From Pachysolen tannophilus NRRL Y-2460 (taxonomy: Eukaryota), in the NCBI GenBank assembly GCA_001661245.1, contig KV454016.1:990268-1054267 (forward strand): a DNA stretch of 64,000 nt. Direction: 5' to 3'. Position numbers and translations under genes: made by a program. Position 1 is the stretch's first letter; each line of letters starts with the position of its first letter. The notes under the pieces are model-generated. The model made no database searches. It was not told where the DNA came from and saw only the letters and a program-made list of their open reading frames with translations. Below are positions 59-62,484 of the stretch, piece after piece.

Positions 59-1452
59 ATGAGAAAGTGTAAAGTATTTGTTGGTAATTCTCATCCTGAA
101 TTGGGAAAATTGGTATGTGAGAGGTTAGGTATTGAACCTGCACCTTGTAGGTTGAAAAAATTTGCTAATGGGGAAACATCAGTTCAAATTGATGTTTCTG
201 TGAGAGATGAAGATGTTTATATTATTCAAAGTAGTTCACCAGATATTAATGATCATATTATGGAACTTTTAATACTTATTAGTGCTTGTAAAGGTGGATC
301 TGCTGCAAAAATTACAGCAGTAATTCCAATGTTTCCTTATTCTAAACAATCAAAAATGAAAAAACATAGAGGTGCTATAACTGCTAGAATGTTGGCAAAT
401 TTATTAATTATGGCAGGGGCCGATCACGTGGTTTCGATGGATTTACATGCTTCTCAAATGCAAGGTTTTTTCTCAAAACCTGTTGATAATTTATATGGAG
501 CACCAACTTTAGCAAAATGGTTGAAATTGAATTTACCAGATTATAAAAATGCAGTTGTTGTTTCTAAAAATCCAGGTGGAACAAAAAGAGTTACAGCTTT
601 AGCAGATTCATTAAAGATAAATTTTGCTATGATTCATACTGATCGTAGAAGAGCAAAAGATGGTTATAAAATGAAAAAAATAGATTAAAATCTAATCAAC
701 TGCAACAAAAAGTGGTGGTTGTAGATAATAAAGGAAGTTCAAAAACAGAAAATAGTGATGGTGAAGAAGAAGATGAAAATATTATTATAACAAATGAATT
801 ACAAACTGCTAGAATTGTTAGAGGTCATGTTGTTGAAGATGATGATATCACTTTTGCTCCTTCACTGACTACATCTACAACTTCTTTAATTACTCATGGA
901 ACTGATTCTGCATCAACATCAATTTCAGGAAATGGTATACATCCTTCAATACTGGGAAGAAAATTAAGTACAAATTTAAATGGTATTAGTTCAACAGATA
1001 TGTCAACTTTACATAATAGTAGCTCAAGTAATTTCCATGAATCAAATTCTGATGATGATGATGAACCAGATGTATTAGCTCAAGAAAAATTGATTACATT
1101 AGTTGGAGATGTTCAAAACAAACCAGCAATAATATTAGATGATATGGTTGATAAACCAACTTCTTTTATCTCTGCTGCAGAACATTTAAGATTAAACTGT
1201 GGTGCAAATGCAGTATATATCGTGGCTACTCATGGTGTATTTTCATCTGATTGTTTAGAGAGTTTGGAAAATTGTAAATTCATTGATAAAATTGTTGTTA
1301 CCAATACTTATCCTATTAGTAAAGAACAACGCGCAAAACTGAAAAAATTGGTTGTAATCGATGTTAGTCCAATTTTTGCAGAATGCATAAGAAGAGATCA
1401 TTTCGGAGAATCTATTAGTGTTTTGTTTAATTCATTAGCCGCCATTGAGTAA
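59..1452 (+). CDS. PRS1: Ribose-phosphate pyrophosphokinase subunit Prs1, with a -1 frame break at ~668-686 (probable homopolymer error)
   Basis: MRKCKVFVGNSHPELG, DLHASQMQGFF and KNPGGTKRV in ORF 59-688; LVGDV..AIILDDMVD and IRRDHFGESISVLF in ORF 712-1452. The second frame is open back to 670. Confidence 0.9.
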
Positions 1453-1945: not shown

Positions 1946-4900
1946 TTAATCTTTAGCTTGAGCCAATGGACTTGAAATATTGACAGCAGTAAACTTCTTT
2001 GGCAAAGAAACTCTGTTGAACCTTGATTGCAATCTCTGTGTTACCAAATCCATATCAAGATGTCTTGTCAAACTAATTCTTCTTATACAACTGATGTAGT
2101 GTTTTTCATCCAATTGAACATCTAATGGATCCTGTGTATGACAACCAGGCGACAATCCTAATCTGATACTATGTTTTTTCTTACCACCTAACAGGTCATG
2201 CGACTCATAAAGCTCAAATACAATTTGAGACAAGTAGTCCAATTCAGGTAAGGCATTTCTAGAAATCTTCATTGGGATTTGAGACTCGTAGATAACATTA
2301 AGCAATGTATATATGTGTGATTCTTTTGTAAAATAAATGAATGTTGAAGGAGTATCAGTTTCTCTCATTGCAGAGATATCCTTCAATATTTGCTTTGCCA
2401 ATGGTAACGAAGTTAATAAACCGATATCTAATTTTTCATCGTCTTCAATACCGTACTCCTGTGGACATATAAAATCAAAAAGAACTTTGGACAATCTGTA
2501 TAATTCTCTTAATTTGGCAAATTTCATATCATCAAAAGGTGAGTTTGAAGAAGATCTAGGAGTTTTGTATCCGCTATCTAAAACCCATCCAATGGATCCA
2601 ACAGCTTTATGCGAGGAAGAAGATGATGTATGACCTGTTAAAGGTGCTGCTTGGGTTAACAGTTGATCAGAAGAAGAACCAGGAGGGATGTTAGGCAGAG
2701 GTGAAGTACCTAAAGGTGTAACTGATACTTGATGTTGATGCTGCGGTGGAGGTGATTTGTTTCCTAAAAGATCAAGTGGTGATGGTTTCGAAGGTGAAGA
2801 AGATGTGCTTGCATCTAAAATATTTTCATTTGGAATCTTGAAGTTATTCAGGGCTAAGACGTTAACAGGGTATTCTTTAACTAATCCTTCGTTCATGTTT
2901 TTGATCAATTCAATGTAATCTTTGTTTTCAGAAGTAGCAAAATCTGTAGGATCAAATATCCTTTGTAAAAAGTTCCTATTATGAAGAGCATCATACTTCA
3001 TTGCATCGTACAACTCAGAAATTTTAGAAGGATGAACTTTTTCAACATTTTCAAATTCCCTAAATAATTTATCCCATCTTTCTTTAAATAACATCGGGGT
3101 ATCTCCGCAGCACCATCTTTTTTGAAATTCTGAAATATAACTACTGTCGTGGTTAAAGTTAAATTCCATTAACTTACGATGATAGGTCATCAATTCCACA
3201 ACTCTTTTCATCACTAAATAAGGTTCAGGCATCTTTGCGGGCCATGCAAATTGTGATGGAGCCTCCTTCCCCTGTCTGATTAATGGTTTCAATTTCTTTT
3301 TAACTTTGTCCATTAAGTCTTTAGCTGCATTACTATCATCTAACAAATCTTTTCTTACTTGTAAGAAATCTGGAGGTAATTCTTCAACATCTAAAAATGC
3401 AGAAGAAAACAATTGAGCTGAAGCAACGACTCTTCTTTCAGATGAAGTGAAAACTTTAACAGATTTCAAAGCCTCTTTGTTCAATAATTGGATATCTTGT
3501 CTCAATTGCTCACCTACATCTAATGCCTGATATCTAGCTGAGTGTGTTGGTTCACCTCCCCATTTAATAATTAACTGAACTTTTTCAACTTCATTTTCTG
3601 AAGTCAAAGCTGGTTTTAATTGAACTTTTGTTCCCGGAAAATTCATTTTCTTTTCCAAAGCAGTTGCCAATTGCTCTAATTTAAATTTATCTTCCAGTTT
3701 TTGTTCTTGGGCAATCTGAACTGTTTGTAAAACAATCTTTAAGTCTTCAACTGCTCTAATAATTACTTCTTCTTTATGACCTTTTAAAAGAGAAATAAAT
3801 AAAGGTGATCTAAAAGAGTATTTGAATTTTTCTTTAGGAGTTCTATCAGCATGTCTAATAACGTTAACCAAACCTTTGAAAACCCATTTTTGATCTTTCT
3901 CTTCATTAATTTTAGGTAATAAGGAAGGTGGTAATTTTGATTTAAATTGATCTCTCAGAACTTTTGCTTCAAAAAACATATTTCTCAATATTCTAGCACA
4001 ATTATCGTAATAAGTATTATTATCTTTAACAAAGGAAAATCCATTTACATCAATAACATAACTTCTACCTTCAACTCTCAATAAATCAAAGCCACAAATT
4101 GTTTGTTCAAAAGCTTTTGAAACTTTTTGTGCCATTTGAGTTTCCTCTGCAGATAATTCAGTAATGTAACGTACTTCTTTACCATGTGTATTTCTTCTAA
4201 CGATTCCATCAACAACAGGGGATTTTCTAGTTTCTGCATGACAATAACTCTGACCAACGGTATAAGCTTTAACATCTTCAAAATTGTCTGTATTCATGAA
4301 TTTTTCATAAAGATATGAACCTTGAGTTCTTGGGAAACTTAAATTTTCATCGAATTCAGAAGATTTATTACCAATTTTTCTAAATAATCTTCTACCACCT
4401 CCACCATTCTCTTGTGCATAATATATATAAACATTATGATCTTCACCATCTACTGGTTTTTCGACAAAAGGTTTTTTCAAGATTTTACCATCAACCATCA
4501 ATGTATCATCATCTATCATTTTCCATTGAGGTTCTTTAACTGGAGAACAATCAATTCCCTTTTTAATCAATTTTTCTTTCAAATCCACATCAATAAAAGG
4601 TCCACCATCTCTTGATATGATTAATCTTTCAGGAGTAGGAACTTTTGCTTTATCTAAAATATCCAATACTAATCTTCTATCCCAAAGAGCCTTTTGCATA
4701 ATTATATCATTGATAAGATAAGGTTTCCTCAATTTAACATATCTAATGGCTTTATCTAATGGGAACCCACTACTGAAAAAACTAATTAAAAAATCACAAG
4801 TCGGCCAATTTTCAACAGCTTCATCTAAAATGACTTTATCTCCAAATATAACTGTTTCAAATTCTCCATTTTCAATCAATCTGTTTAATATGTGCCTACA

Positions 4901-11134: not shown

Positions 11135-11874
11135 GCTTAATTAATATATAAGTTATTTTTATTCTTTTTAACGACCTAACACGAACTTAGCGTTTTCTTT
11201 TCTATTTTTTTTTTTTTATTCCTTAATCTTTTGATTATTTTGGTTATGTTATTTTAATTTTCAATTATATAGATTAAAGATATATATTACATTACATTAT
11301 TACATTACGAGTTTAACTTTTAGATGATATAGATTAAAAGTTAATTATTTATTACATTAATTAGACCAATTGTGAACGGTGGCCGTTGGCCGTTGGCCGC
11401 TCCGGTACTTACTCCGGAACCCACTGCCTTATTATTACTTGCGGCGGCTGAGGTGGTGGCGTCGGCGGGCGCAACTGAAAAATTTCTCTTCCGCCTTTTT
11501 TTTTTCCTATATCTCTATTTCCGTCTCCGTCTCCGTCTCCATCTCAGAGACTTGAGAAGTTTATTTTTTTCCCCTCAGTTCCCTCACTTTGCAGCGGTCT
11601 TAATTGAGAAATCAACTGGAATGGCAGCACATGTCAACTGCACGGTTTAATATTACCGAATCCGGTAATAGATGGTTCCATCTGTTGCACGTAGTACTTT
11701 ATCAGTGTAGTATTGTAATAATGTAAATATATATATATATAAATATATATGCTTTTAAAAAGATTTAATTTTAATTGATTTAATTATTAATTCAAGTTCA
11801 ATTATATTTTAGGTCATATTGACATTCTTATAAAACATTTCTTTTTAACTAGGGCCTACTTTTTTTTTTTTTTT

Positions 11875-11912
<38 letters not shown>

Positions 11913-11922
11913 TTTTTTTTTT

Positions 11923-12320
11923 NNNNNNNNNNNNNNNNNNNNNNNNNNNNNNNNNNNNNNNNNNNNNNNNNNNNNNNNNNNNNNNNNNNNNNNNNNNNNN
12001 NNNNNNNNNNNNNNNNNNNNNNNNNNNNNNNNNNNNNNNNNNNNNNNNNNNNNNNNNNNNNNNNNNNNNNNNNNNNNNNNNNNNNNNNNNNNNNNNNNNN
12101 NNNNNNNNNNNNNNNNNNNNNNNNNNNNNNNNNNNNNNNNNNNNNNNNNNNNNNNNNNNNNNNNNNNNNNNNNNNNNNNNNNNNNNNNNNNNNNNNNNNN
12201 NNNNNNNNNNNNNNNNNNNNNNNNNNNNNNNNNNNNNNNNNNNNNNNNNNNNNNNNNNNNNNNNNNNNNNNNNNNNNNNNNNNNNNNNNNNNNNNNNNNN
12301 NNNNNNNNNNNNNNNNNNNN
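11923..12320. other. Assembly gap flanked by poly-T
   Basis: N run. Confidence 1.
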
Positions 12321-12405
12321 TCATAGATTATTTATTATTATAAAAACAAAAAAAAAAAAAAAAAATTGGGATTTAAATATTGCGTTTTTCTTTTACCGCT
12401 TTAGA

Positions 12406-15913: not shown

Positions 15914-16691
15914 TCACCAAAATTTACTTATAAGAACCAAAACTATTAATAATATTAAAACTGCAATGATGGCATAAGTGATTAATTTGTTTGCAGCCAT
16001 TCTTCTTGTCATTGTTTTTATTGTTTTAATACTTTTATCGACATAATTATCAGCTTCACTTAATGTATTTCTAGAATTTGTAATTTGTTCTCGTTGACTT
16101 CTTAAATCGTTCAAGATATTAGCTCCTATATCTTCTGTTTCCAATGCTATTCTAGAGCTATCTCTTAATCTTTCAGAAGATCTTTCTAAAGACAGATTAT
16201 TTGATAATAACAGTTGACGTTGATCATCCAGTAAATTTCCTGAAACACCACCATCTCTATAGTAATTACTTCCAAAAAGGTTTCTCTTATCTTCATCATC
16301 CATTAATTTTTTCAAACTTTGTTTCAAATAATCTGTATCTTTTTGATATGTTCTCAATTTAGAATTATAAGTAGATCTATGTTGAGTTGATATATTTTGA
16401 ATTTCTATATTCATTTGGTCTATTATTTCATAACATTCGTCCATTGATTTTTCCACATCTCTCATTGCTAATCTTCTTGGTTCTATAACAAAGGCAAATC
16501 AAATAAAAGCAAAAAAAAAAAAAAAAAACCGTTTCTGTTAGTAAAAAAATTCATTGTATTATTTATACTTTAATGATAATAATATACATACCACCATCAA
16601 GTTCCGATATTGATGATAATTTTGTTTGGGCTTCATTAAATGATAGCTTAAAATCAGCTTCATAACTATTAAACAAACTTGATTCCGACAT
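15914..16691 (-). CDS. VTI1: Qb-SNARE Vti1; exon1 16691-16592, intron 16591-16483, exon2 16482-15914
   Basis: GTATGT donor, TACTAAC branch (16537-16543), TAG acceptor; spliced MSESSLFNSYEADF...LDGEPRRLAMRDVEK; SNARE motif and C-terminal TM. Confidence 0.92.
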
Positions 16692-29587: not shown

Positions 29588-30215
29588 NNNNNNNNNNNNN
29601 NNNNNNNNNNNNNNNNNNNNNNNNNNNNNNNNNNNNNNNNNNNNNNNNNNNNNNNNNNNNNNNNNNNNNNNNNNNNNNNNNNNNNNNNNNNNNNNNNNNN
29701 NNNNNNNNNNNNNNNNNNNNNNNNNNNNNNNNNNNNNNNNNNNNNNNNNNNNNNNNNNNNNNNNNNNNNNNNNNNNNNNNNNNNNNNNNNNNNNNNNNNN
29801 NNNNNNNNNNNNNNNNNNNNNNNNNNNNNNNNNNNNNNNNNNNNNNNNNNNNNNNNNNNNNNNNNNNNNNNNNNNNNNNNNNNNNNNNNNNNNNNNNNNN
29901 NNNNNNNNNNNNNNNNNNNNNNNNNNNNNNNNNNNNNNNNNNNNNNNNNNNNNNNNNNNNNNNNNNNNNNNNNNNNNNNNNNNNNNNNNNNNNNNNNNNN
30001 NNNNNNNNNNNNNNNNNNNNNNNNNNNNNNNNNNNNNNNNNNNNNNNNNNNNNNNNNNNNNNNNNNNNNNNNNNNNNNNNNNNNNNNNNNNNNNNNNNNN
30101 NNNNNNNNNNNNNNNNNNNNNNNNNNNNNNNNNNNNNNNNNNNNNNNNNNNNNNNNNNNNNNNNNNNNNNNNNNNNNNNNNNNNNNNNNNNNNNNNNNNN
30201 NNNNNNNNNNNNNNN
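29588..30215. other. Assembly gap
   Basis: N run flanked by poly-A/poly-T. Confidence 1.
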
Positions 30216-39049: not shown

Positions 39050-40233
39050 TTATTCTTTTTTAACTTTTGTTGATTGTTTTTGCTGTTGCTTCAAGAAACC
39101 TTCAAAAACAATTCCACTAAACACTAGGGAAATACCAAACCATTGTTTGAAATTAATAGCATGACCAAATAACAAAACACTTAAAATCATTGAGAACATC
39201 TTTCTAGTAACTGTAACAGTTACTAGTACAATGCTATCAAATTTTTCCAAAGTGATAAATATGAAGATTTGACCAATAGCACCACATAGTCCATATAAAA
39301 GTATATTCGATAACACTGCTGGATTTTCAGAGATAAATGTCATTGAATAGTTTAAATCATCAGTCAGTAAAAATGTATATGACAGTGTTAATATACATGT
39401 TAAAAAATTTATTCCTGACATCAAATGAGCACCTGTAATTTTTTTTTAGTAATTTTTAACAATTGATCTTGCATTGAATTGGTTAATCCATCTAAAAACA
39501 TTGAAAAAATCAAATATGATAACCCTAAAGTCAATCTACCATCTCCATTTGAATCTGCTTTCCCCTTTTTCGAAGATGAAGATGAAGATAATGTAAATAT
39601 TAAAATACCTGTAGTAATGATTCCAACAACCATATATTTATGAGGAGGGAATTTCTTACCAAAGACCAAGAATTGAACCATCATAACAGGTATTAATTTG
39701 CAAGATTTTGACAAGAGGAAAACCAAATAATTTAAATGTTTTAAAGATTTATAACTAATAGGACTGGATAAACTTTGTGCTGTAGCAATTACCAAGAATT
39801 TTTGCAAGACTTGAAAATCTAATTTCTTTGAACCATCTTCAACAAAGATACTAAGAGGAGTTGTAAATTTTTTGGATTTAATTGAAAGATAAATCGATCC
39901 CACAGCGCAAGCAAAAAATGATTGAATTGTGTTGACAAATAATGGAGAATTAAATCTTTCACTATTCTTATACGTAGTTGTTGAAATTTTTTCCTGTAAG
40001 ATTGACCATATTAAAAATGAAGAATATATACCAGCAACACAAATTATCAAAGTCAGTATTAAACTGTTACCATTGTTGGACAACTGATCCACTTGATCAG
40101 AGTTATAAGATTGAACCAGCTCATCAAACTTATCCACTTGTTCCGACTTCCCAAGTTCATTTTTCCTTGTATTATTTGATTTCATACTAGTTTGATTTTT
40201 CAGCAGCAACGATGACCTAATCTTAGTTGCCAT
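39050..40233 (-). CDS. HUT1: UDP-galactose transporter homologue Hut1; -1 frame break in T9 run 39439-39447
   Basis: GIYSSFLIWSILQEKI, KSCKLIPVM, DGLTNSMQD, GQIFIFITLEKF, VTVTRKMFSM; adding one base restores KITGAHLMSG. Confidence 0.88.
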
Positions 40234-41949: not shown

Positions 41950-42228
41950 NNNNNNNNNNNNNNNNNNNNNNNNNNNNNNNNNNNNNNNNNNNNNNNNNNN
42001 NNNNNNNNNNNNNNNNNNNNNNNNNNNNNNNNNNNNNNNNNNNNNNNNNNNNNNNNNNNNNNNNNNNNNNNNNNNNNNNNNNNNNNNNNNNNNNNNNNNN
42101 NNNNNNNNNNNNNNNNNNNNNNNNNNNNNNNNNNNNNNNNNNNNNNNNNNNNNNNNNNNNNNNNNNNNNNNNNNNNNNNNNNNNNNNNNNNNNNNNNNNN
42201 NNNNNNNNNNNNNNNNNNNNNNNNNNNN
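41950..42228. other. Assembly gap
   Basis: N run. Confidence 1.
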
Positions 42229-44702: not shown

Positions 44703-46281
<1,579 letters not shown>

Positions 46282-50769: not shown

Positions 50770-51791
50770 ATGGTTTCTCCATCTAATAGTAATTTATCGG
50801 CGATAAACCAATACTTCAATTTGCTGAAGACTTTTTTACCTGTCTTTGATGGTTATCCACCTGCATTTACTTCTGGGTTTGTTGTGTTTTTAGTGCTAAT
50901 ATATATATTAAGTTTTTTCACATCGATTAATGATAAGATTGCATTGAACCCATGGGCTCCATTTAACTTTGATTGTAAGTATTTGAAAAAAAAAAAAATT
51001 TTTTTTAAAGTGAATGATGATCGAGAGATACTAACTATATTTTTTTTGCTTCTTTACTGGTAATCAATTGATATATAGTGAATAGAATTTCAATGTACCC
51101 ACTTGGACATGTTTCATTTTTCCATTTATTATTCAATATTATTGCAATTGTAACTCCATTATCAAATTTTGAAAAAGAAAATGGAACGGTTCATACCGGA
51201 ATTGTATTGAATATACTTGCTACAGTTACAGCTTTACCTTATTGTTTATTGGGGATAATTTTTTATCCAAATACAGAAGTATTAGGAGCAAGTGCATGGT
51301 GTTTTTCATTTGCAGCATATGAAGCTCATAAACAAAGTTTATTAAAACCAAGCATTATAATTACTCCAACTTTTGTGATTCCAACTATTTATTCACCATT
51401 TGTGTTTTTAATACTTATAGCTGTTATAGCACCACATTCAAGTTTTATGGGTCATTTATTTGGTATATTGGCTGGATATGCTTTAAGTTTTGGATATTTA
51501 ACAAAATTAATTGAACCACCTTCAAAAATTGTACAATTTATTGAAAAAAAAATAGATACTTTAATTAATTTAATTCCTCCACAATTTAGATATTATAGAG
51601 AAATTGAAGTTAAAGTATTACGTGATGAAAAATTGAAAACACATGTAAGCATTTCAGATTCAATATTACCAACACATCATACTGCTAATAATATTACTGC
51701 TGATACAAATAGTAGAAATGTTGGAAGCTCAGATGGACAAGCAAGAAGACATACATTTAGTGGTCTGGGTCATATATTGGGCGCATCCTGA
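50770..51791 (+). CDS. RBD2: Rhomboid protease Rbd2; intron 50975-51078
   Basis: YPLGHVSFFHLLFN, GASAW catalytic Ser, SSFMGHLFG; GTAAGT/TACTAAC/TAG. Confidence 0.9.
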
Positions 51792-54073: not shown

Positions 54074-55264
54074 ATGGAGTTTGACGAAGAGCTGGATGCT
54101 AATCTAGAGTTTAAATCTTCTAAAAATGTTGGTATTTACCAGACGTTTGAAGATATGAATTTGAAAGATACTTTATTGAAAGGTATATTTAGTTCTGGTT
54201 TTGAAAGACCTAGTTCTATTCAGTCGAGAGCTATAATGGAGATAATTAACGGTAAAGATGTTATTGCTCAATCACAATCTGGTACAGGTAAGACTGCCAC
54301 GTTTAGTATTGGACTGTTGGAAGTTATTGATACCAAGAAACGAGATTGTCAAGCGATTGTACTTTCTCCAACAAGAGAATTGGCTCAACAGATTCAAAAT
54401 GTTGTGAGTAGTCTTGGTGATTATATGAATGTTAAGACGCATGCGTGTATAGGTGGTACAAGTGTTGGTCAGGACATCAGGGCGTTAGAGAGTGGGCAAC
54501 ATATAGTAAGTGGTACACCAGGTAGAGTTTTAGATATGATTAAAAGAAGAAGTTTAAGTATAAGACATGTTCAAATATTGATATTGGATGAAGCAGATGA
54601 ATTACTTTCAAAAGGTTTTAAAGAACAAATTAAAAATATTTATGCGTTATTACCTAAATCTACACAAGTTGTTGTTGTTAGTGCAACACTTCCAAGAGAT
54701 GTTTTACAAATTACTAAAGAATTTATGAAAGATCCACTGAAAATTTTGGTTAAAAGAGATGAAATAACTTTAGAAGGTATAAAGCAATATTTTATTGATG
54801 TTTCTGAAGAAAAATGGAAATTTGATACTTTATGTGATTTATATGATTCTTTAACTATTACTCAAGCAGTAATTTTTTGTAATACAAAGAAAAAAGTAGA
54901 TTGGTTATCTGATGCTTTAAAAAAATCAAATTTCACAGTTGCTGCAATACATGGTGATATGAAACAAGATGAAAGAGATAAGATAATGAACGAGTTTAGA
55001 TTAGGAAATTCAAGAGTATTAATTTCAACAGATGTTTGGGCTAGAGGTATTGATGTTCAACAAGTTTCATTGGTTATTAATTACGACTTACCATTTGATA
55101 GAGAAAACTATATTCACAGAATTGGAAGGTCTGGCAGATTTGGAAGAAAAGGTGTTGCCATAAACTTTGTTACCGATGAGGATAAGAATACTTTGGACGA
55201 AATACAACACTATTACAGTACTCATATTCAAGAAATGCCATCTAACCTCAACGATATATTGTAA
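54074..55264 (+). CDS. FAL1: eIF4AIII-like DEAD-box helicase Fal1
   Basis: [47 protein letters not shown] (reverse) at ~54001-54009. Confidence 0.93.
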
Positions 55265-55929: not shown

Positions 55930-56464
55930 ATGATAAAGGGCTATTGTGATGGTTCTAAGATAAGTCTACTGCTGCCGAGTGATATTTTGACATTGCAAGA
56001 ATTGGAGTTATCAAACAAACGGAAATCGCTTAAACCTGTTGAATTTAATAATGAAAATATGTTAAAGGATAATAATAATAATAATTTACCGCTGTTGGAT
56101 GGTAGCAATTATAACAGCGGTAATGGTAGTGGTAAAATGTCACCGAGAAAGAAAACTTTAGCAAGGCTCAGATCGCATAATGAAGTTAATAAGAAAGAAG
56201 AAGGAACAAAAATTGATATATCAAAGAGTAAAAGATCAAGATTGCACGATAAGTTGAGTTTATGGAAATCAGATACAAATCATGAAAATGGAAATAATGG
56301 TAAACAAAAATTATTTCATGCCAAAAGTGGATTATCTTTGAGGAAAAGTACTTCTTTTACAAGAGGTAAACAAAGTATAGATGAAGATTCTCAAAAGGTG
56401 AATGCTCCAATTATAGAGCACGGGAAAAAAAATATTGCTAAAACTTCCAACTCCAATATCAAAA

Positions 56465-56499
<35 letters not shown>

Positions 56500-58005
56500 A
56501 ATGCTGCAATTTTTAAAGTTAAGAAAACACCAGTGACATCTTCAATTGAGAAAAATTTAAAATTACAAAATGATAAGCAAAAACCAATTACTAGTACTAC
56601 TGTTTTAGATGATAAAATATCTTTATTTTCGTTTAATAAAGCTAAGATAACAGCTTTTGAAAATGGATCATCATTAGCGAATGATGATATGCCTTCATCA
56701 TTTGACGTAAGTTTTAATTCTTTGGACAAAGTTATAGGGCATGGATTTTTCGAAATATATCAAATTCATGGAGGTTCTGTAACCTATTTACAATGTGGTT
56801 CAGTTGTTTATCCATTATTACCAAAATTGAAAATATTAAGAACAAGTTTAAATCAATTTATTCTTTTCTTATCAAATCCTGAAAGATATTGGCAAATTTT
56901 TATATGTTGTCGGGATACTAAAGTTTTAAAATCTTTAGAAAATTCTTTTAAAAAAGTTTGTAAATATAGGGATTTATATGTTCCATTTCTCAACGAAGAA
57001 GACGAATTACAGGTAAAGGAACTACAGCTAAAGGAACAACAGGTAAAGGAACCACAAGAAAGGAACCGACAATTCAAGACAACTTCACCAATTGTAAGAG
57101 AAAACTCTAAGAAATCAATATCTTCAATTACATCAGAAATGGCATGCTTTAATATAAACTATAAGGATAATCTTAAAACTCCAAATAATTTCACATCATC
57201 ATCAACACCTCCAGCTAAAATAAATCCAAGTCCACAAAATTTTAATTTTAAACAACCAACAAATATGCCAATTATTAAAAGAGTTTCATCAAATACTTCA
57301 TCTTTAGACTCAGAATTGGATGAATTACAAGAAATAACAAATGGTACATTAAATCAACCCAGATCCAAATCTTCTTCTGTTGTCACTAGTGATATTCAGT
57401 CTATAGATAAACAGATAAATATTAAAAAACATCAATGGAATCCTAAAAATCCGCGTTCAAGACCTTCTTTAGATTTTGTTAAATCTACTCCAAAGTTATC
57501 ACCAAAATCGAGTTTCGCCATTTCGGTAGATAATAGAAATTCAAGCTTTGATACTTTGCATTCAAAACATAATTCCTTATATATACTGGAATCAAGTTGG
57601 ATGGACCCAGATGATGGAATAGACGTGACGTATAAGGAATTTTCAAACGATGAAGAATCAAATTCCACTACAATCTTAAAACGTTCCCCAAATAGTAGCA
57701 GGACTGTTTATAAAAATTTAGAATTTATTCCTCCTAAAAGATTTTCTTCTGCTTTTCCCTCTGAATCAAATAAAGGGCCAGCGGCTATAAAAGACAATAG
57801 ACGATCAACAACTGACTCTACGTTATTCGTTCCCACTCAAGAGAGTAGATTGACCGATTACAAACGTGAACTCAAGCAACTTTCTACAAGAGGTTTAAAG
57901 TTAGATAGGAATGAAGTAAAAGGGTTATTAATGGACAGCAATGAAGAAGAACAAACTAAGCTATACAAAAGACAATCCATAATTGGTAAAATTTGGGGAT
58001 GGTGA
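55930..58005 (+). CDS. INP1: Peroxisome inheritance protein Inp1-like
   Basis: Central domain GHGFFEIYQIH..TYLQCGSVVYPLLPKLKILR; neighbour of TOM40. Confidence 0.65.
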
Positions 58006-58547
58006 TTATTTTTTGTATTGTGGTAATTTTTTTTTTTTTCTCTCTCTCTCTTTCGTTTTTTTCGGAAATGTATATTAGTTTAATTAAATTCCAGGTTTTT
58101 CCTCCTTTGTATTAACAGTTAAAGTTTATTTACCATATATATGATTATTTTTTAGTTGTTTTTGTACAGGTTGTACAATGTTCTTTTACCTTTATATATT
58201 TTATTATTTAAATAAATAATAAAAAAGTATAGAGTTTATTCAAAGCTCGAGTTATATATACACTAAAATTTTCATTAAACTTCTTAAGAAAATGCTAAAA
58301 CCAAAAGCTTAACATATATAGATAAAACTTGAATTATACTTAGACATTAAGGAATAGTCTTTTTTGAGCAAAAAGAAAAAGAAAACAAAAAACTATAAAA
58401 AATAAGAAGATAAAAAGTAAGTACCTTATCTTTTTTTATTATTTGCCTTCAATTTTCTTTTATCATATTTAAAATTTTTTTTTTTTTTTTGTCTTTTTTT
58501 AAATTTAACTAAATTTTCATTTTTTAACTTCACTTCGAACTAATTAT

Positions 58548-58661
58548 TTACAATTGTTGAACACCTGGAATTGGGTTACCATTTTGATCAATCAAACCTT
58601 GTTGCATCATCATCAATTGTTCGGAACCAGCAGTTTCAAATTGTAAGCCCAAACCTAATCT
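58548..58661 (-). CDS. TOM40: Tom40 C-terminal 37 codons plus stop, detached by the inversion
   Basis: Minus-strand translation RLGLGLQFETAGSEQLMMMQQGLIDQNGNPIPGVQQL*. Confidence 0.93.
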   Translation of the reverse strand, partial: RLGLGLQFETAGSEQLMMMQQGLIDQNGNPIPGVQQL

Positions 58662-58806
58662 GATTTATTCATAATAGAATATCAATCAAAAGGTTATTTA
58701 TCAATTAATTTCATTTCTTTTGTTTTGGTTTTTGGTTTTTTTTTTTATTTATTCTTTTTTTTTTTTTTTTGTGTATATATAGAAATATCAAATTTTCATC
58801 ATTAAT

Positions 58807-59847
58807 ATGAGTTCTACAGTTCCATTAGGTGATTTATCGAAATTGAGTATTTCGGGTTTACCAGGTGTCACACCCTCGAAACCAAGCCCAGAAGGATTTT
58901 GGTCTGCTAATCCAATTTATTCATATTTGAATAATGTTTATACAAAAGTTTCAAGTCACCGTGCTTCTTTAAATTTGGAAAATCCAGGTACTATTGAAAA
59001 TTTGAATAAAGAAGTTAGTAGAGATGTTTTTTTAAATCAATATTTTTTCACAGGTTTAAGAGCTGATTTAAATAAAGCTTTTATAATGAATCCAGTTTTC
59101 CAAGTTTCTCATACTTTATCTGTTGGATCACAAACTATTCCTCCATATGCTTTTAGTGCATTATATGCTAACGATAAAGCTTTTATTCAAGGTAATATTG
59201 ATAATGATCTTTCACTTTCAGGTAGATATAATTATACTTGGGATAAACATAACACTTCAAAATTGACTTTACAAATAGCTAAAGGTCAACCAACTATGGT
59301 TCAATTGGAACAAGATTATCAAGGTTATGATTATTCAATCAATTTCAAATCTTTAAATCCTTCATTTTTGGATGGTCAATTCACAGGTGTTGTTGTTGGT
59401 TCTTTATTGCAATCAATCACTCCAAAATTGGCTTTGGGTCTTGAAACTGTATACTCTGTTCAACCACAATATCCAGGCGATGCCGCTATTTCATATGTTG
59501 CCCGTTACAATCACGGCGACTGGATCGCCTCTGCCCAATTACAAGGTCAAGGATCTTTAATTGCATCTTTCTGGAGAAAAGTTTCAGATAAACTTGAGGC
59601 TGGTTTAGAAACTCAGATTCAAACATCTGTAAGACCAATTACTGATTCATTAATGGGCCAAACAATTGGAATTGAACCTGTTGTTGAAGGTGTCACTACC
59701 ATTGGTGCAAAATATGAATTTAGACAATCTGTTTTTAGAGGTCAATTAGATTCTCAAGGAAAAGTTTCTTGCTTTTTAGAAAAAAGAGTCTTGCCAACAA
59801 TTTCAATCTTATTCAGTGGTGAATTAGACAACTTCAAATCAACTTCA
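58807..59847 (+). CDS. TOM40: Tom40 mitochondrial import channel, N-terminal 347 codons inside the inverted segment; the ORF beyond 59847 is spurious
   Basis: NPGTIENLNKEVSRDVFL, GAKYEFRQSVFRGQLDS, ends GELDNFKSTS then runs into Phe-rich non-coding sequence. Confidence 0.93.
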
Positions 59848-60090
59848 TTCTTCTTTTTAAAAAAAATTAGATTCTTCAATTTATTAAAAAAAAGATTTAA
59901 AAATTGTTATCAACTTTCTTTTCTTTTCTTCCTTTCTTTCTTTCTTTTCTTCTTGCTAGGTTTCAACCTTCTTCTGGTCAATTTTTATTGTCGAATGAAA
60001 AATTTTATTTTTTTTTACTTTTTTGAATTTTTGTTAAGTGCTACACGACCTATGTTTTTCTCTCTTTTTTTCCATCTTTTTTTGGGCGGT

Positions 60091-60145
60091 TACTGGGCGG
60101 CAACTGGGCGGCTACTGGAGAGCTACTGGAGAGCTACTGGGCGGC
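60091..60145. repeat. GC-rich 11-bp tandem repeat, 5 copies
   Basis: tactgggcggc aactgggcggc tactggagagc tactggagagc tactgggcggc. Confidence 0.9.
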
Positions 60146-60327
60146 GGCAGCGTCCGCATCCCCAATTGAGGGGGGGAGGAGACAACTAAAGCGGAATCAG
60201 TGCTAAATGCGGGTACTAGCACTGGCACTAGCATTGGTACTGGTACTGGTACTGGCGGTAGTGCTTGGCCGTAGTGTTTAGCCGTGGTTGTGCCGGAGGA
60301 GGTGGTGAATAAACTCTTTTTCTGCTT

Positions 60328-61265
60328 TCAGGACACTGTCAGATCCGCCGAGGGTTCAAGGTGAGAATGTTCTGGAGCTTCCAGATCTGGAGCTTCCAGG
60401 TCTGGCATTAAGATATCGTTGTTTTCTTCACCTTTGATTGCCGGTGTTTCAGTAGCAGCGGGTTCTGTAGTTTCTTGATCCATTGGATCTGTACCTTGTT
60501 TTTCATCCAGTTTGTCATCTGGTTCAGCATCTGGTTCAGCGCTGCTGGTTGTAATAATATCTTGATCCAATTCCAATTTCAATTCTGGTAATTGTATTCT
60601 TTCACCAACGGATTCTCTAAAATTTAACAATAAAGATCTAAAAAGTATTTTGGTTAAAACGTTAGTATAATTCTGTCCCAAAACTTTAAAAAATATTGAT
60701 TATTTGGAAATTATAACTTACTTTTTCTTTTCGATATTTTCATTTACTCTATTTATTCTTGAAATTCTTTCTTCATGAGATTCATCTAACCCGTCGATAT
60801 CACAAAGCAATGCTTTAATCTTTGCAATTCTAATCCTTAATCGTCCAGCCTATAACACATAACATGGGATCGAGTTAGTAATTTACAGTTTTTTTTTTAT
60901 TTACCAACAATAAAAGAAAAAAGACATACCGCATTTTCAAAATCTTTTGGAGATAATTTCCCCTTTTTCACATCTTCAATCAATTCCAATAATACGGGAA
61001 TTAATTCCATCTGTTTGATCTCTTTCAATGATTCATGAGCATTTTCTAATTTCTGTAAGAGTTTTTCATCTTCTGAATCTATATCTTTGGGCACCTTCCC
61101 ATCATCAATATCATCATTATTTGTGGAACCAGCATTAAATTCATGCTGTGGTTGAATTTTAGGACTACCACTTGTACTAGCATTTGCACTCGCACTGGCA
61201 CTATCATTCACGCTGGCACTGCCACGAACAATATTCTGAGCTAAAGGACTGCTTCTTGAAGCCAT
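60328..61265 (-). CDS. CSE2: Mediator subunit Med9/Cse2; introns 60929-60850 and 60721-60638
   Basis: Spliced LIPVLLELIEDVKKGKLSPKDFENAAGRLRIRIAKIKALL..DGLDESHEERI..KKKSLL; GTATGT and GTAAGT donors, two TACTAAC branches, TAG acceptors. Confidence 0.75.
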
Positions 61266-61830: not shown

Positions 61831-62484
61831 ATGAAGTTATTTTATTGGGTGGTAGTGCCTTATTTGGTGTATTTAGGATTCAACTGGTTATTTTACAACT
61901 GGTTACCTCAATTTTATGTTTTTGATCCAATTGTTTTACAAGAACTTTCCAAGAAAGCTATTTCTAATAATCCAAATGGTAATATTACAAATATTTTCCA
62001 AGATTTAACTTTATTATTACAACAAGAGTATGGGGATTTAGTCAACGATTACAATCCGAATAATTTTTTTTTCAATAATGCTGGTAATGCAATGGGTACG
62101 ATGCATATTCTTCATGCTTCAATATCGGAATATGTAATTTTTTTCGGTACTGCTATTGGTACTGAAGGTCATAGTGGTCTTCACTTTGCTGATGATTACT
62201 TCACCATCTTGAAAGGAGAACAAAGAGCTGCTCGTGCCGATTCGTTGGTTCCTGAAGTATATAAACCAGGTGATCAACACCATTTAGTCAAGGGTAACTC
62301 GAAACAATATGCAATGCCTGGAGAATCTTTTGCCTTGGAATTAGCACAAGGATGGGTTCCTTCAATGTTACCCTTTGGATTCTTGGACTGTATCGCATCA
62401 ACACTAGATTTCCCAACTTTTATCAAAACCGCTCGTTTGACAGGTTACGATATGATTAGAAACTTATTACGCGGTAAGTTTTAA
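61831..62484 (+). CDS. ERG2: C-8 sterol isomerase
   Basis: [46 protein letters not shown]. Confidence 0.96.

What the first reader, a model, noticed from the sequence alone, without database searches (positions are those of the whole stretch)
58548..59847. TOM40 split by a clean ~1.19 kb inversion: C-terminus lies upstream on the opposite strand
The + strand ORF follows Tom40 to ...GELDNFKSTS (59847), then reads Phe-rich non-coding sequence. The missing end, RLGLGLQFETAGSEQLMMMQQGLIDQNGNPIPGVQQL*, is encoded at 58661-58548 on the minus strand. Reverse-complementing 58662-59847 (breakpoints +/-1 nt; TCA|AGA and TC|C AGA both give Ser-Arg) restores an intact minus-strand gene. It aligns without gaps to S. 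cerevisiae GEIDHFKNDTKIGCGLQFETAG as I recall it, becomes convergent with INP1 as in S. cerevisiae, and reconnects to an A-rich and GC-motif promoter at 59848-60300. The detached part holds the last beta-strand (beta-signal), so the orientation shown should give a non-functional version of a gene that is essential in S. cerevisiae. No long inverted repeats or recombinase gene flank it. A 6-bp IR (TGATTT 58661-58666 / AAATCA 59836-59841) is nearby but recombining there would break the frame. Possible explanations: mis-assembly or in-silico rearrangement, a heterozygous inversion allele, or a true invertible switch (least likely).
Basis: partly seen in the sequence, partly recalled or inferred. 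Interest (0 to 1): 0.92.

Follow-up and report, generated by a model that had tools for sequence, protein, structure and literature searches.

The report
TOM40 inversion is a record artefact
The mitochondrial import-channel gene TOM40 looks cut in two by a flipped 1.2-kb block in this yeast sequence, but independent sequencing data show the block the other way round with the gene whole, so the flip is most likely an error in the genome record and not biology.

Summary
Codons 1-347 of TOM40 lie on the + strand (58807-59847). The last 37 codons and the stop lie upstream on the - strand (58661-58548). Turning 58662-59847 round gives a 384-codon gene that aligns across the join without a gap in 111 of 111 alignment rows (110 homologues plus this protein).

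The flip is not in the sequencing data that could be laid. Contigs of three runs from two studies (X1, X2, X4) all join 58661 to 59847 and 58662 to 59848 on opposite strands. There are no extra or shared letters at the joints, and no listed contig piece crosses the window's own junctions.

The flip does sit in the public record. The protein collection holds the chimeric 460-aa ORF letter for letter, on one contig of 1,128,252 bases. No intact copy from this organism is listed; the next best hit is 75% identical.

No inverted repeats or recombinase gene flank the block.

Verdict: an orientation error in a draft, gap-containing assembly (about 0.88). A real inversion in the source isolate is unlikely, and a switch very unlikely. 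Interest is low, except as a data-quality flag for a faulty Tom40 protein entry.

The parts
58548..58661 (-). 3' end of TOM40: codons 348-384 plus the stop. Holds the last beta-strand with the beta-signal-like motif and the C-terminal tail.
   Evidence: Translation. Aligns with 6jnf_A residues 352-387, E 5.9e-08. Motif found at restored residues 348-355.
58662..59847 (.). 1186-bp block that stands in the opposite orientation in the window compared with sequencing contigs.
   Evidence: table 5: joints 58661|59847 and 58662|59848 on opposite strands in X1, X2 and X4, with 'both' = 0 and no letters between. Table 8: record coordinates run on without a break (1100 to 1101, 3196 to 3197).
58662..58806 (+). 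145 bases of TOM40 5' flank, including a poly-T tract, carried inside the flipped block.
   Evidence: Sequence. ATG at 58807. Contig records 3, 8 and 14 run from 59848 straight into 58662-58699.
58807..59847 (+). TOM40 codons 1-347.
   Evidence: Pfam Porin_3, E 6e-76. Aligns with 6jnf_A residues 1-349, E 1.7e-143. 378 homologues at E <= 0.001.
59848..60189 (+). Spurious 113-residue read-through tail of the 460-aa ORF. In the real orientation this is TOM40 upstream spacer.
   Evidence: The tail is part of stored protein P0003. It contains no beta-signal-like motif.
55930..58005 (+). INP1-like neighbour, convergent with TOM40 once the block is turned round.
   Evidence: Pfam Inp1, E 1.1e-19. One X2 contig (record 7) runs from the TOM40 body through the C-terminal piece into this gene's 3' side (table 8).
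60897..61265 (-). Med9-like ORF upstream of the real TOM40 promoter region.
   Evidence: Pfam Med9, E 1.2e-4, 22.5 bits, below the cut-off of 26.9, profile positions 1-28 of 80.

Best explanation
The organism has an ordinary, intact TOM40 gene of 384 codons on the - strand. It is convergent with INP1 and lies downstream of a Med9-like gene. In the genome record from which the window was cut, a 1186-bp block (58662-59847) is written in the wrong orientation. The block carries the 5' flank and codons 1-347. This is an error of assembly, scaffolding or finishing in a draft sequence that still has N gaps. ORF calling on that record then produced a false 460-aa Tom40 whose last 113 residues are translated spacer.

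Shown: the reads-derived contigs disagree with the record at both junctions, and the record's chimeric ORF is in the public protein collection.

Inferred: the runs include or match the isolate behind the record, and the step that produced the error.
For: 1; in three of the three informative runs laid (X1 and X2 from one sample and study, X4 from another study), contigs join 58661 to 59847 and 58662 to 59848 on opposite strands.
   - Word depths are 236/194 (X1), 121/127 (X4) and 85/72 (X2).
   - There are no shared letters ('both' = 0), no letters between the sides, and no other letter differences over 57600-60900.
   - No listed piece crosses 58661/58662 or 59847/59848 colinearly, and there are no loose ends at those places.
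   - The fourth run (X6) covers only 59474-59765 and says nothing about the junctions.
2; the protein collection holds P0003. It is identical over all 460 residues to the window ORF 58807-60189 read with table 26. It has one member, on one contig of 1,128,252 bases, with its sources hidden as the window's own. The next best hit is 75% identical, so no intact copy from this organism is stored.
3; the re-inverted gene is full length and colinear with 110 homologues and with solved Tom40.
4; the window has three N runs (398, 628 and 279 bases), so it looks like a scaffolded draft. These could also be masked stretches.
5. Passages of PMC11452307: the conserved beta-signal lies in the C-terminal beta-strand and is what binds Sam50. 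Tom40 is described as essential for the import of most mitochondrial proteins. The record's form would therefore be expected not to assemble.
6; no inverted repeats at the breakpoints, and no recombinase or transposase family among the 36 ORFs scanned.
Against: - The junctions carry no N, no repeat and no lost or gained base. Common assembler errors usually sit at repeats or gaps, so I cannot name the step that made this one.
- A perfectly balanced flip is also what a real two-break inversion, or a deliberate in-silico edit, would look like.
- The evidence is from contigs, not raw reads. Contigs drop rare variants, so a minor population with the window's orientation is not excluded.
- I cannot show that any laid run is the sample behind the record.
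- No whole genome is held, so I could not count other flipped blocks or look for a second TOM40 copy.
Confidence: 0.88

Rival explanations
1. A real, fixed inversion in the particular isolate behind the record. Two breaks were rejoined without loss, leaving Tom40 without its last strand in that isolate only.
For: The flip is in the stored public copy of the contig. The junctions are clean and free of repeats, as end-joining of two breaks can give. I could not prove that the laid runs come from the same isolate.
Against: - Contigs of two studies are identical to the window in every other letter over 3.3 kb, apart from a one-letter length difference, yet carry the other orientation. That points to the same or a nearly identical strain.
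- TOM40 is essential for viability in S. cerevisiae (recalled, not checked here).
- The C-terminal piece has no start codon of its own.
- No second Tom40 from this organism is in the protein collection.
Confidence: 0.06
2. A heterozygous or subclonal inversion allele. Both orientations exist in the culture, and the assembler happened to write the rarer one.
For: Contigs drop rare variants, so cannot exclude a minority form. A second, intact allele would keep the cells alive.
Against: In each of X1, X2 and X4, each joint is carried by a single contig, at depths similar to the flanking contigs. No alternative contig, joint or loose end appears at the window's junctions. An assembler would not normally prefer a minority path.
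Confidence: 0.04
3. A programmed invertible switch that turns TOM40 off and on.
For: Only the geometry: the promoter-proximal part of a gene is flipped as one block.
Against: - No inverted repeats at the ends. The only matches are AT-rich and low-complexity, plus a 6-bp match off the breakpoints.
- No recombinase family in the 36 ORFs of the window that were scanned.
- Only one orientation in three runs of two studies.
- Switching off an essential housekeeping gene has no evident use.
Confidence: 0.01

Closest known systems
Tom40 of Saccharomyces cerevisiae (solved in the TOM core complex, e.g. PDB 6jnf, 6ucu)
   Same: The two pieces together cover the solved chain from end to end. The N piece matches residues 1-349 (E 1.7e-143) and the C piece matches residues 352-387 (E 5.9e-08). 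The restored length of 384 aa falls within the 370-400 aa range of 110 of the 119 non-self hits listed. Adjacency to INP1 as in S. cerevisiae is recalled, not tested.
   Different: Nothing of substance. One search lists the S. cerevisiae cluster at 63% identity. Only the record's orientation of codons 1-347 differs, and that is not in the sequencing contigs.
Mis-oriented block in a draft scaffold (assembly or finishing orientation error)
   Same: A balanced reversal of one block. The record disagrees with reads-derived contigs at exactly two points. The surrounding sequence is a draft with three N runs.
   Different: The block is not bounded by N runs or repeats, which is unusual for such errors. 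The step that caused it is unknown.
Site-specific invertible DNA switches (Hin/Gin-type segments, fim-type promoter switches; recalled from general knowledge)
   Same: A block containing the start of a gene stands in either of two orientations relative to the rest of the gene.
   Different: No inverted repeats, no recombinase, a eukaryotic housekeeping gene, and only one orientation in the data.

Membership tests
Tom40 (eukaryotic porin superfamily, Pfam PF01459 Porin_3) | Significant match to the Porin_3 profile | tested here: met
   E 6e-76, 255.9 bits against a cut-off of 28.4, profile positions 1-264 of 271 for the N piece.
Tom40 (eukaryotic porin superfamily, Pfam PF01459 Porin_3) | End-to-end colinearity with solved Tom40, including the last beta-strand | tested here: met
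   Met only by the two pieces taken together: 6jnf_A residues 1-349 and 352-387. Gapless across the join in 111 of 111 alignment rows. The ORF as written in the window lacks the last strand.
Tom40 (eukaryotic porin superfamily, Pfam PF01459 Porin_3) | C-terminal beta-signal (polar-x-G-x-x-hydrophobic-x-hydrophobic; motif recalled; its place in the C-terminal strand read in PMC11452307) | tested here: met
   One match at restored residues 348-355, in the detached piece. None in the 113-residue junk tail.
Programmed invertible switch | Inverted repeats at the two ends of the block | tested here: not met
   Seed-6 repeat scan of 58000-60500 gave only AT-rich matches of 70-79% complementarity away from the breakpoints. 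Joints have 0 shared letters.
Programmed invertible switch | A recombinase encoded nearby | tested here: not met
   No recombinase, integrase or transposase family among 36 ORFs of the 64-kb window scanned with Pfam. The rest of the genome could not be searched.
Programmed invertible switch | Both orientations present in one culture | tested here: inconclusive
   Only the restored orientation appears in contigs of X1, X2 and X4. Contigs cannot exclude a rare second form.
Record (assembly) artefact | Sequencing data contradict the record at the junctions | tested here: met
   Both joints on opposite strands in three runs of two studies. No colinear bridge among the listed pieces.
Record (assembly) artefact | The anomaly is in the deposited record itself, not added to the window later | tested here: met
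   Stored protein P0003 equals the chimeric 460-aa ORF under table 26, on one contig of 1,128,252 bases. No intact copy is stored. This is indirect: the source names are hidden.
Record (assembly) artefact | The contradicting reads come from the same isolate as the record | not testable with these tools
   Run, sample and organism names are coded. Letter-for-letter identity over 3.3 kb, apart from a one-letter length difference, suggests the same or a near-identical strain.

The most novel reading that the evidence does not exclude
The isolate behind the record really carries, in all or some of its cells, a perfectly balanced, repeat-free 1186-bp inversion. The inversion detaches the beta-signal strand from Tom40. 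Either Tom40 can work or be rescued without its own last strand, or a lethal allele is sheltered by an intact copy.
Probability: 0.07. Interest if true: 0.55.

Novelty: not a real feature. Interest (0 to 1): 0.08.

Why it matters
Biologically it does not matter. The organism's TOM40 is ordinary.

Practically it is a data-quality flag. A public yeast genome record, and the protein set derived from it, carry a false 460-aa Tom40 that lacks the last beta-strand and ends in 113 residues of translated spacer. Anyone using that proteome for orthologue alignments, phylogenomics or structure prediction would inherit the error. A gene-loss screen might call the gene damaged.

The case also shows that a clean, repeat-free flip of about 1 kb can sit inside a contig without any N to warn of it.

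Tried and rejected
- Whole-genome search of the window's own assembly: no genome is held. I could not count other flipped blocks or look for a second TOM40.
- RNA evidence: no RNA holder was listed among the runs.
- X6 (a small-share run) was laid but covers only 59474-59765 at depth 4, so it is uninformative on the junctions.
- Earlier notes of this scan: nothing on this genome, and no look-alike stretches. A word search returned eight split-gene cases in other genomes that do not bear on this one.
- tRNA scan of the window for a CAG-anticodon tRNA: no tRNA genes.
- Looking for further flipped genes in the window:
  - 25 of 32 further ORFs had Pfam matches, as did the three neighbours scanned.
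  - Two genes are split into same-strand ORFs.
  - None was seen split across strands.
  - I did not hunt for the missing ends of the ORFs whose profile matches are truncated (V-SNARE, TIP49, Rhomboid, Med9).
- I did not look up the re-joined protein in the collections, because that would have meant sending a joined sequence to a tool.

Full report
**What is in the window**

The + strand ORF 58807-60189 (460 aa under the standard code) is Tom40 for its first 347 codons.
- It matches Pfam Porin_3 at E 6e-76, over profile positions 1-264 of 271.
- It aligns with solved S. cerevisiae Tom40 (6jnf_A) residues 1-349 at E 1.7e-143.
- It has 378 homologues at E <= 0.001 in the protein collection.

After 59847 the frame runs on through Phe/Leu-rich spacer that matches nothing.

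The - strand 58661-58548 encodes 37 residues and a stop. These align with 6jnf_A residues 352-387 (E 5.9e-08), which is exactly the part the + strand ORF lacks. That - strand frame meets a TAA two codons upstream of the break (58667-58665), so the fragment cannot be translated on its own from before the beta-strand.

The neighbours are an INP1-like gene (55930-58005, +), a Med9-like ORF (60897-61265, -) and ERG2 (61831-62484, +).

**Does turning the block round restore the gene?**

In a script I reverse-complemented 58662-59847 and read the - strand frame. It is 1155 nt, or 384 codons plus a stop, with no CTG codon, so the choice of yeast genetic code does not matter here.

I aligned the product with the 110 homologues of 370-400 aa, out of the 119 non-self hits listed. 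The nine hits outside that length range were left out.
- No row of 111 has a gap within residues 337-358, which span the join at 347|348.
- Median identity is 0.73 over the C part and 0.67 over the N part.
- A beta-signal-like motif sits at residues 348-355, and none occurs in the 113-residue junk tail. The motif pattern is recalled.

Passages of a 2024 review (PMC11452307, read with 'find') place the conserved beta-signal in the C-terminal beta-strand, which pairs with Sam50 to start barrel assembly. They also call Tom40 essential for the import of most mitochondrial proteins. The ORF as written in the window would therefore be expected not to assemble. That TOM40 is essential for viability in S. 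cerevisiae is recalled and was not checked here.

**What the sequencing data say**

A search for runs that hold 58300-60300 listed nine runs. Five of them hold 0.92 of the sampled words: X1, X2, X3 and X5 from one sample and study, and X4 from another. No RNA run was listed.

I laid X1, X2, X4 and X6 on 57600-60900. All are Logan contigs, not raw reads.
- In X1, X2 and X4 the only joints reported are 58661|59847 and 58662|59848, both on opposite strands.
- Each joint has 0 shared letters and no letters between its sides.
- Word depths are 236 and 194 (X1), 121 and 127 (X4), and 85 and 72 (X2).
- The piece table shows the same thing:
  - One contig reads 58790-59847 forwards and goes straight on into 58661-58507 backwards. 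In X2 it continues into the INP1 side as far as 57600.
  - Another contig reads 60898-59848 backwards and goes straight on into 58662-58699 forwards.
- No listed piece crosses either of the window's own junctions, and no loose ends lie there.
- No other letter differs over the 3.3 kb.
- X6 covers only 59474-59765 and is uninformative on the junctions.

In the DNA of two studies, then, the block stands the other way round and TOM40 is whole, on the - strand, convergent with INP1.

**Is the flip in the public record, or only in the window?**

The top hit of the protein search, P0003, is 460 aa and 100% identical. It has one member, on one contig of 1,128,252 bases, and its sources are hidden as the window's own. 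Its sequence equals the window ORF 58807-60189 letter for letter when CTG is read as Ala (table 26). It differs from the standard-code reading at residues 390 and 437.

The next best hit is only 75% identical. The collection therefore holds the chimeric form and no intact Tom40 from this organism. I take this to mean that the flip is in the deposited contig and was carried into its predicted proteins. The argument is indirect, because the names are hidden.

**Why an artefact and not biology**

Points for an artefact:
- The record disagrees with reads-derived contigs of two studies that otherwise match it letter for letter.
- The window is a draft with three N runs of 398, 628 and 279 bases. 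These could also be masked stretches.
- The written form would disable a central housekeeping gene.
- The detached end has no start codon.
- No second Tom40 from the organism is stored.

Points against a switch:
- The repeat scan found only AT-rich, low-complexity inverted matches of 70-79% complementarity, and none at the breakpoints.
- No recombinase or transposase family appears among the 36 window ORFs scanned.
- Only one orientation appears in the data.

What remains open:
- The junctions carry no N and no repeat, and the reversal is perfectly balanced. That is unusual for assembler errors, so I cannot name the step that produced it.
- Contigs drop rare variants.
- I cannot show that a laid run is the record's own sample.
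- No whole genome is held, so other flips could not be counted.

My estimates are about 0.88 for a record artefact, about 0.06 for a real fixed inversion in the source isolate, about 0.04 for a heterozygous or subclonal allele, and about 0.01 for a programmed switch.

**Comparison with what is known, and verdict**

The gene is a plain member of the Tom40 family. All three defining features tested are met once the two pieces are read together. The block fails two of the three defining features of invertible switches, and the third is inconclusive. The closest description is a mis-oriented block in a draft assembly, atypical in having clean junctions free of gaps and repeats.

There is no biological novelty. 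The value of the finding is as a flag on a faulty public gene model.

**Side observations**

The stored translation reads CTG as Ala. PMC5951914 (passages read) assigns that code to the Pachysolen, Nakazawaea and Peterozyma clade. The five CTG codons of two highly conserved window genes align with N and D (RVB2-like) and D, V and I (eIF4A-III-like) in their best solved homologues. None of the five aligns with Leu.

Noticed in passing
window 58807-60189, 44968-46281, 54074-55264: The public collection's copy of the 460-aa ORF reads CTG as Ala (NCBI table 26). This points to a yeast of the CUG-Ala clade (Pachysolen, Nakazawaea, Peterozyma, per PMC5951914). None of the five CTG codons in the RVB2-like and eIF4A-III-like genes aligns with Leu in the best solved homologue; they align with N, D, D, V and I. 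TOM40 itself has no CTG codon.
   Followed up: partly
window 11923-12320, 29588-30215, 41950-42228: Three runs of N (398, 628 and 279 bases). They are scaffold gaps or masked stretches. The ORF 11845-12324 (-) listed is an artefact of reading through one of them.
   Followed up: no
window 39050-40233 (-): A UAA-family nucleotide-sugar transporter gene is in two abutting - strand ORFs, 39421-40233 and 39050-39421. They match Pfam UAA profile positions 2-191 and 197-306. This is a frameshift in the record or a very short intron.
   Followed up: no
window 59-1452 (+): A PRPP synthetase gene is in two + strand ORFs, 59-688 and 1000-1452. Their Pribosyl_synth profile matches are 1-40 and 61-183. 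This is an intron, or an insertion with stops.
   Followed up: no
window 60080-60259: GC-rich tandem repeats in an otherwise AT-rich spacer: six 11-nt units at 60080-60156 and three 12-nt units at 60212-60259. GC is 0.59 over 60100-60299, against about 0.25 nearby. In the real orientation they lie upstream of TOM40.
   Followed up: no
window 57600-58364: Contigs of X1, X2 and X4 are one letter longer than the window in this stretch (gaps = 1, table 8). The difference probably lies in the T-run and CT-repeat at 58022-58064 that the tool masks. That would be a second small disagreement between record and reads.
   Followed up: no
window 60897-61265 (-), 15914-16465 (-), 44968-46281 (+), 51093-51791 (+): Several ORFs match only part of their Pfam profile at one end: Med9 1-28 of 80, V-SNARE from position 38, TIP49 from 26, Rhomboid from 10. 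These probably reflect introns near the gene ends. I did not look for the missing exons.
   Followed up: no
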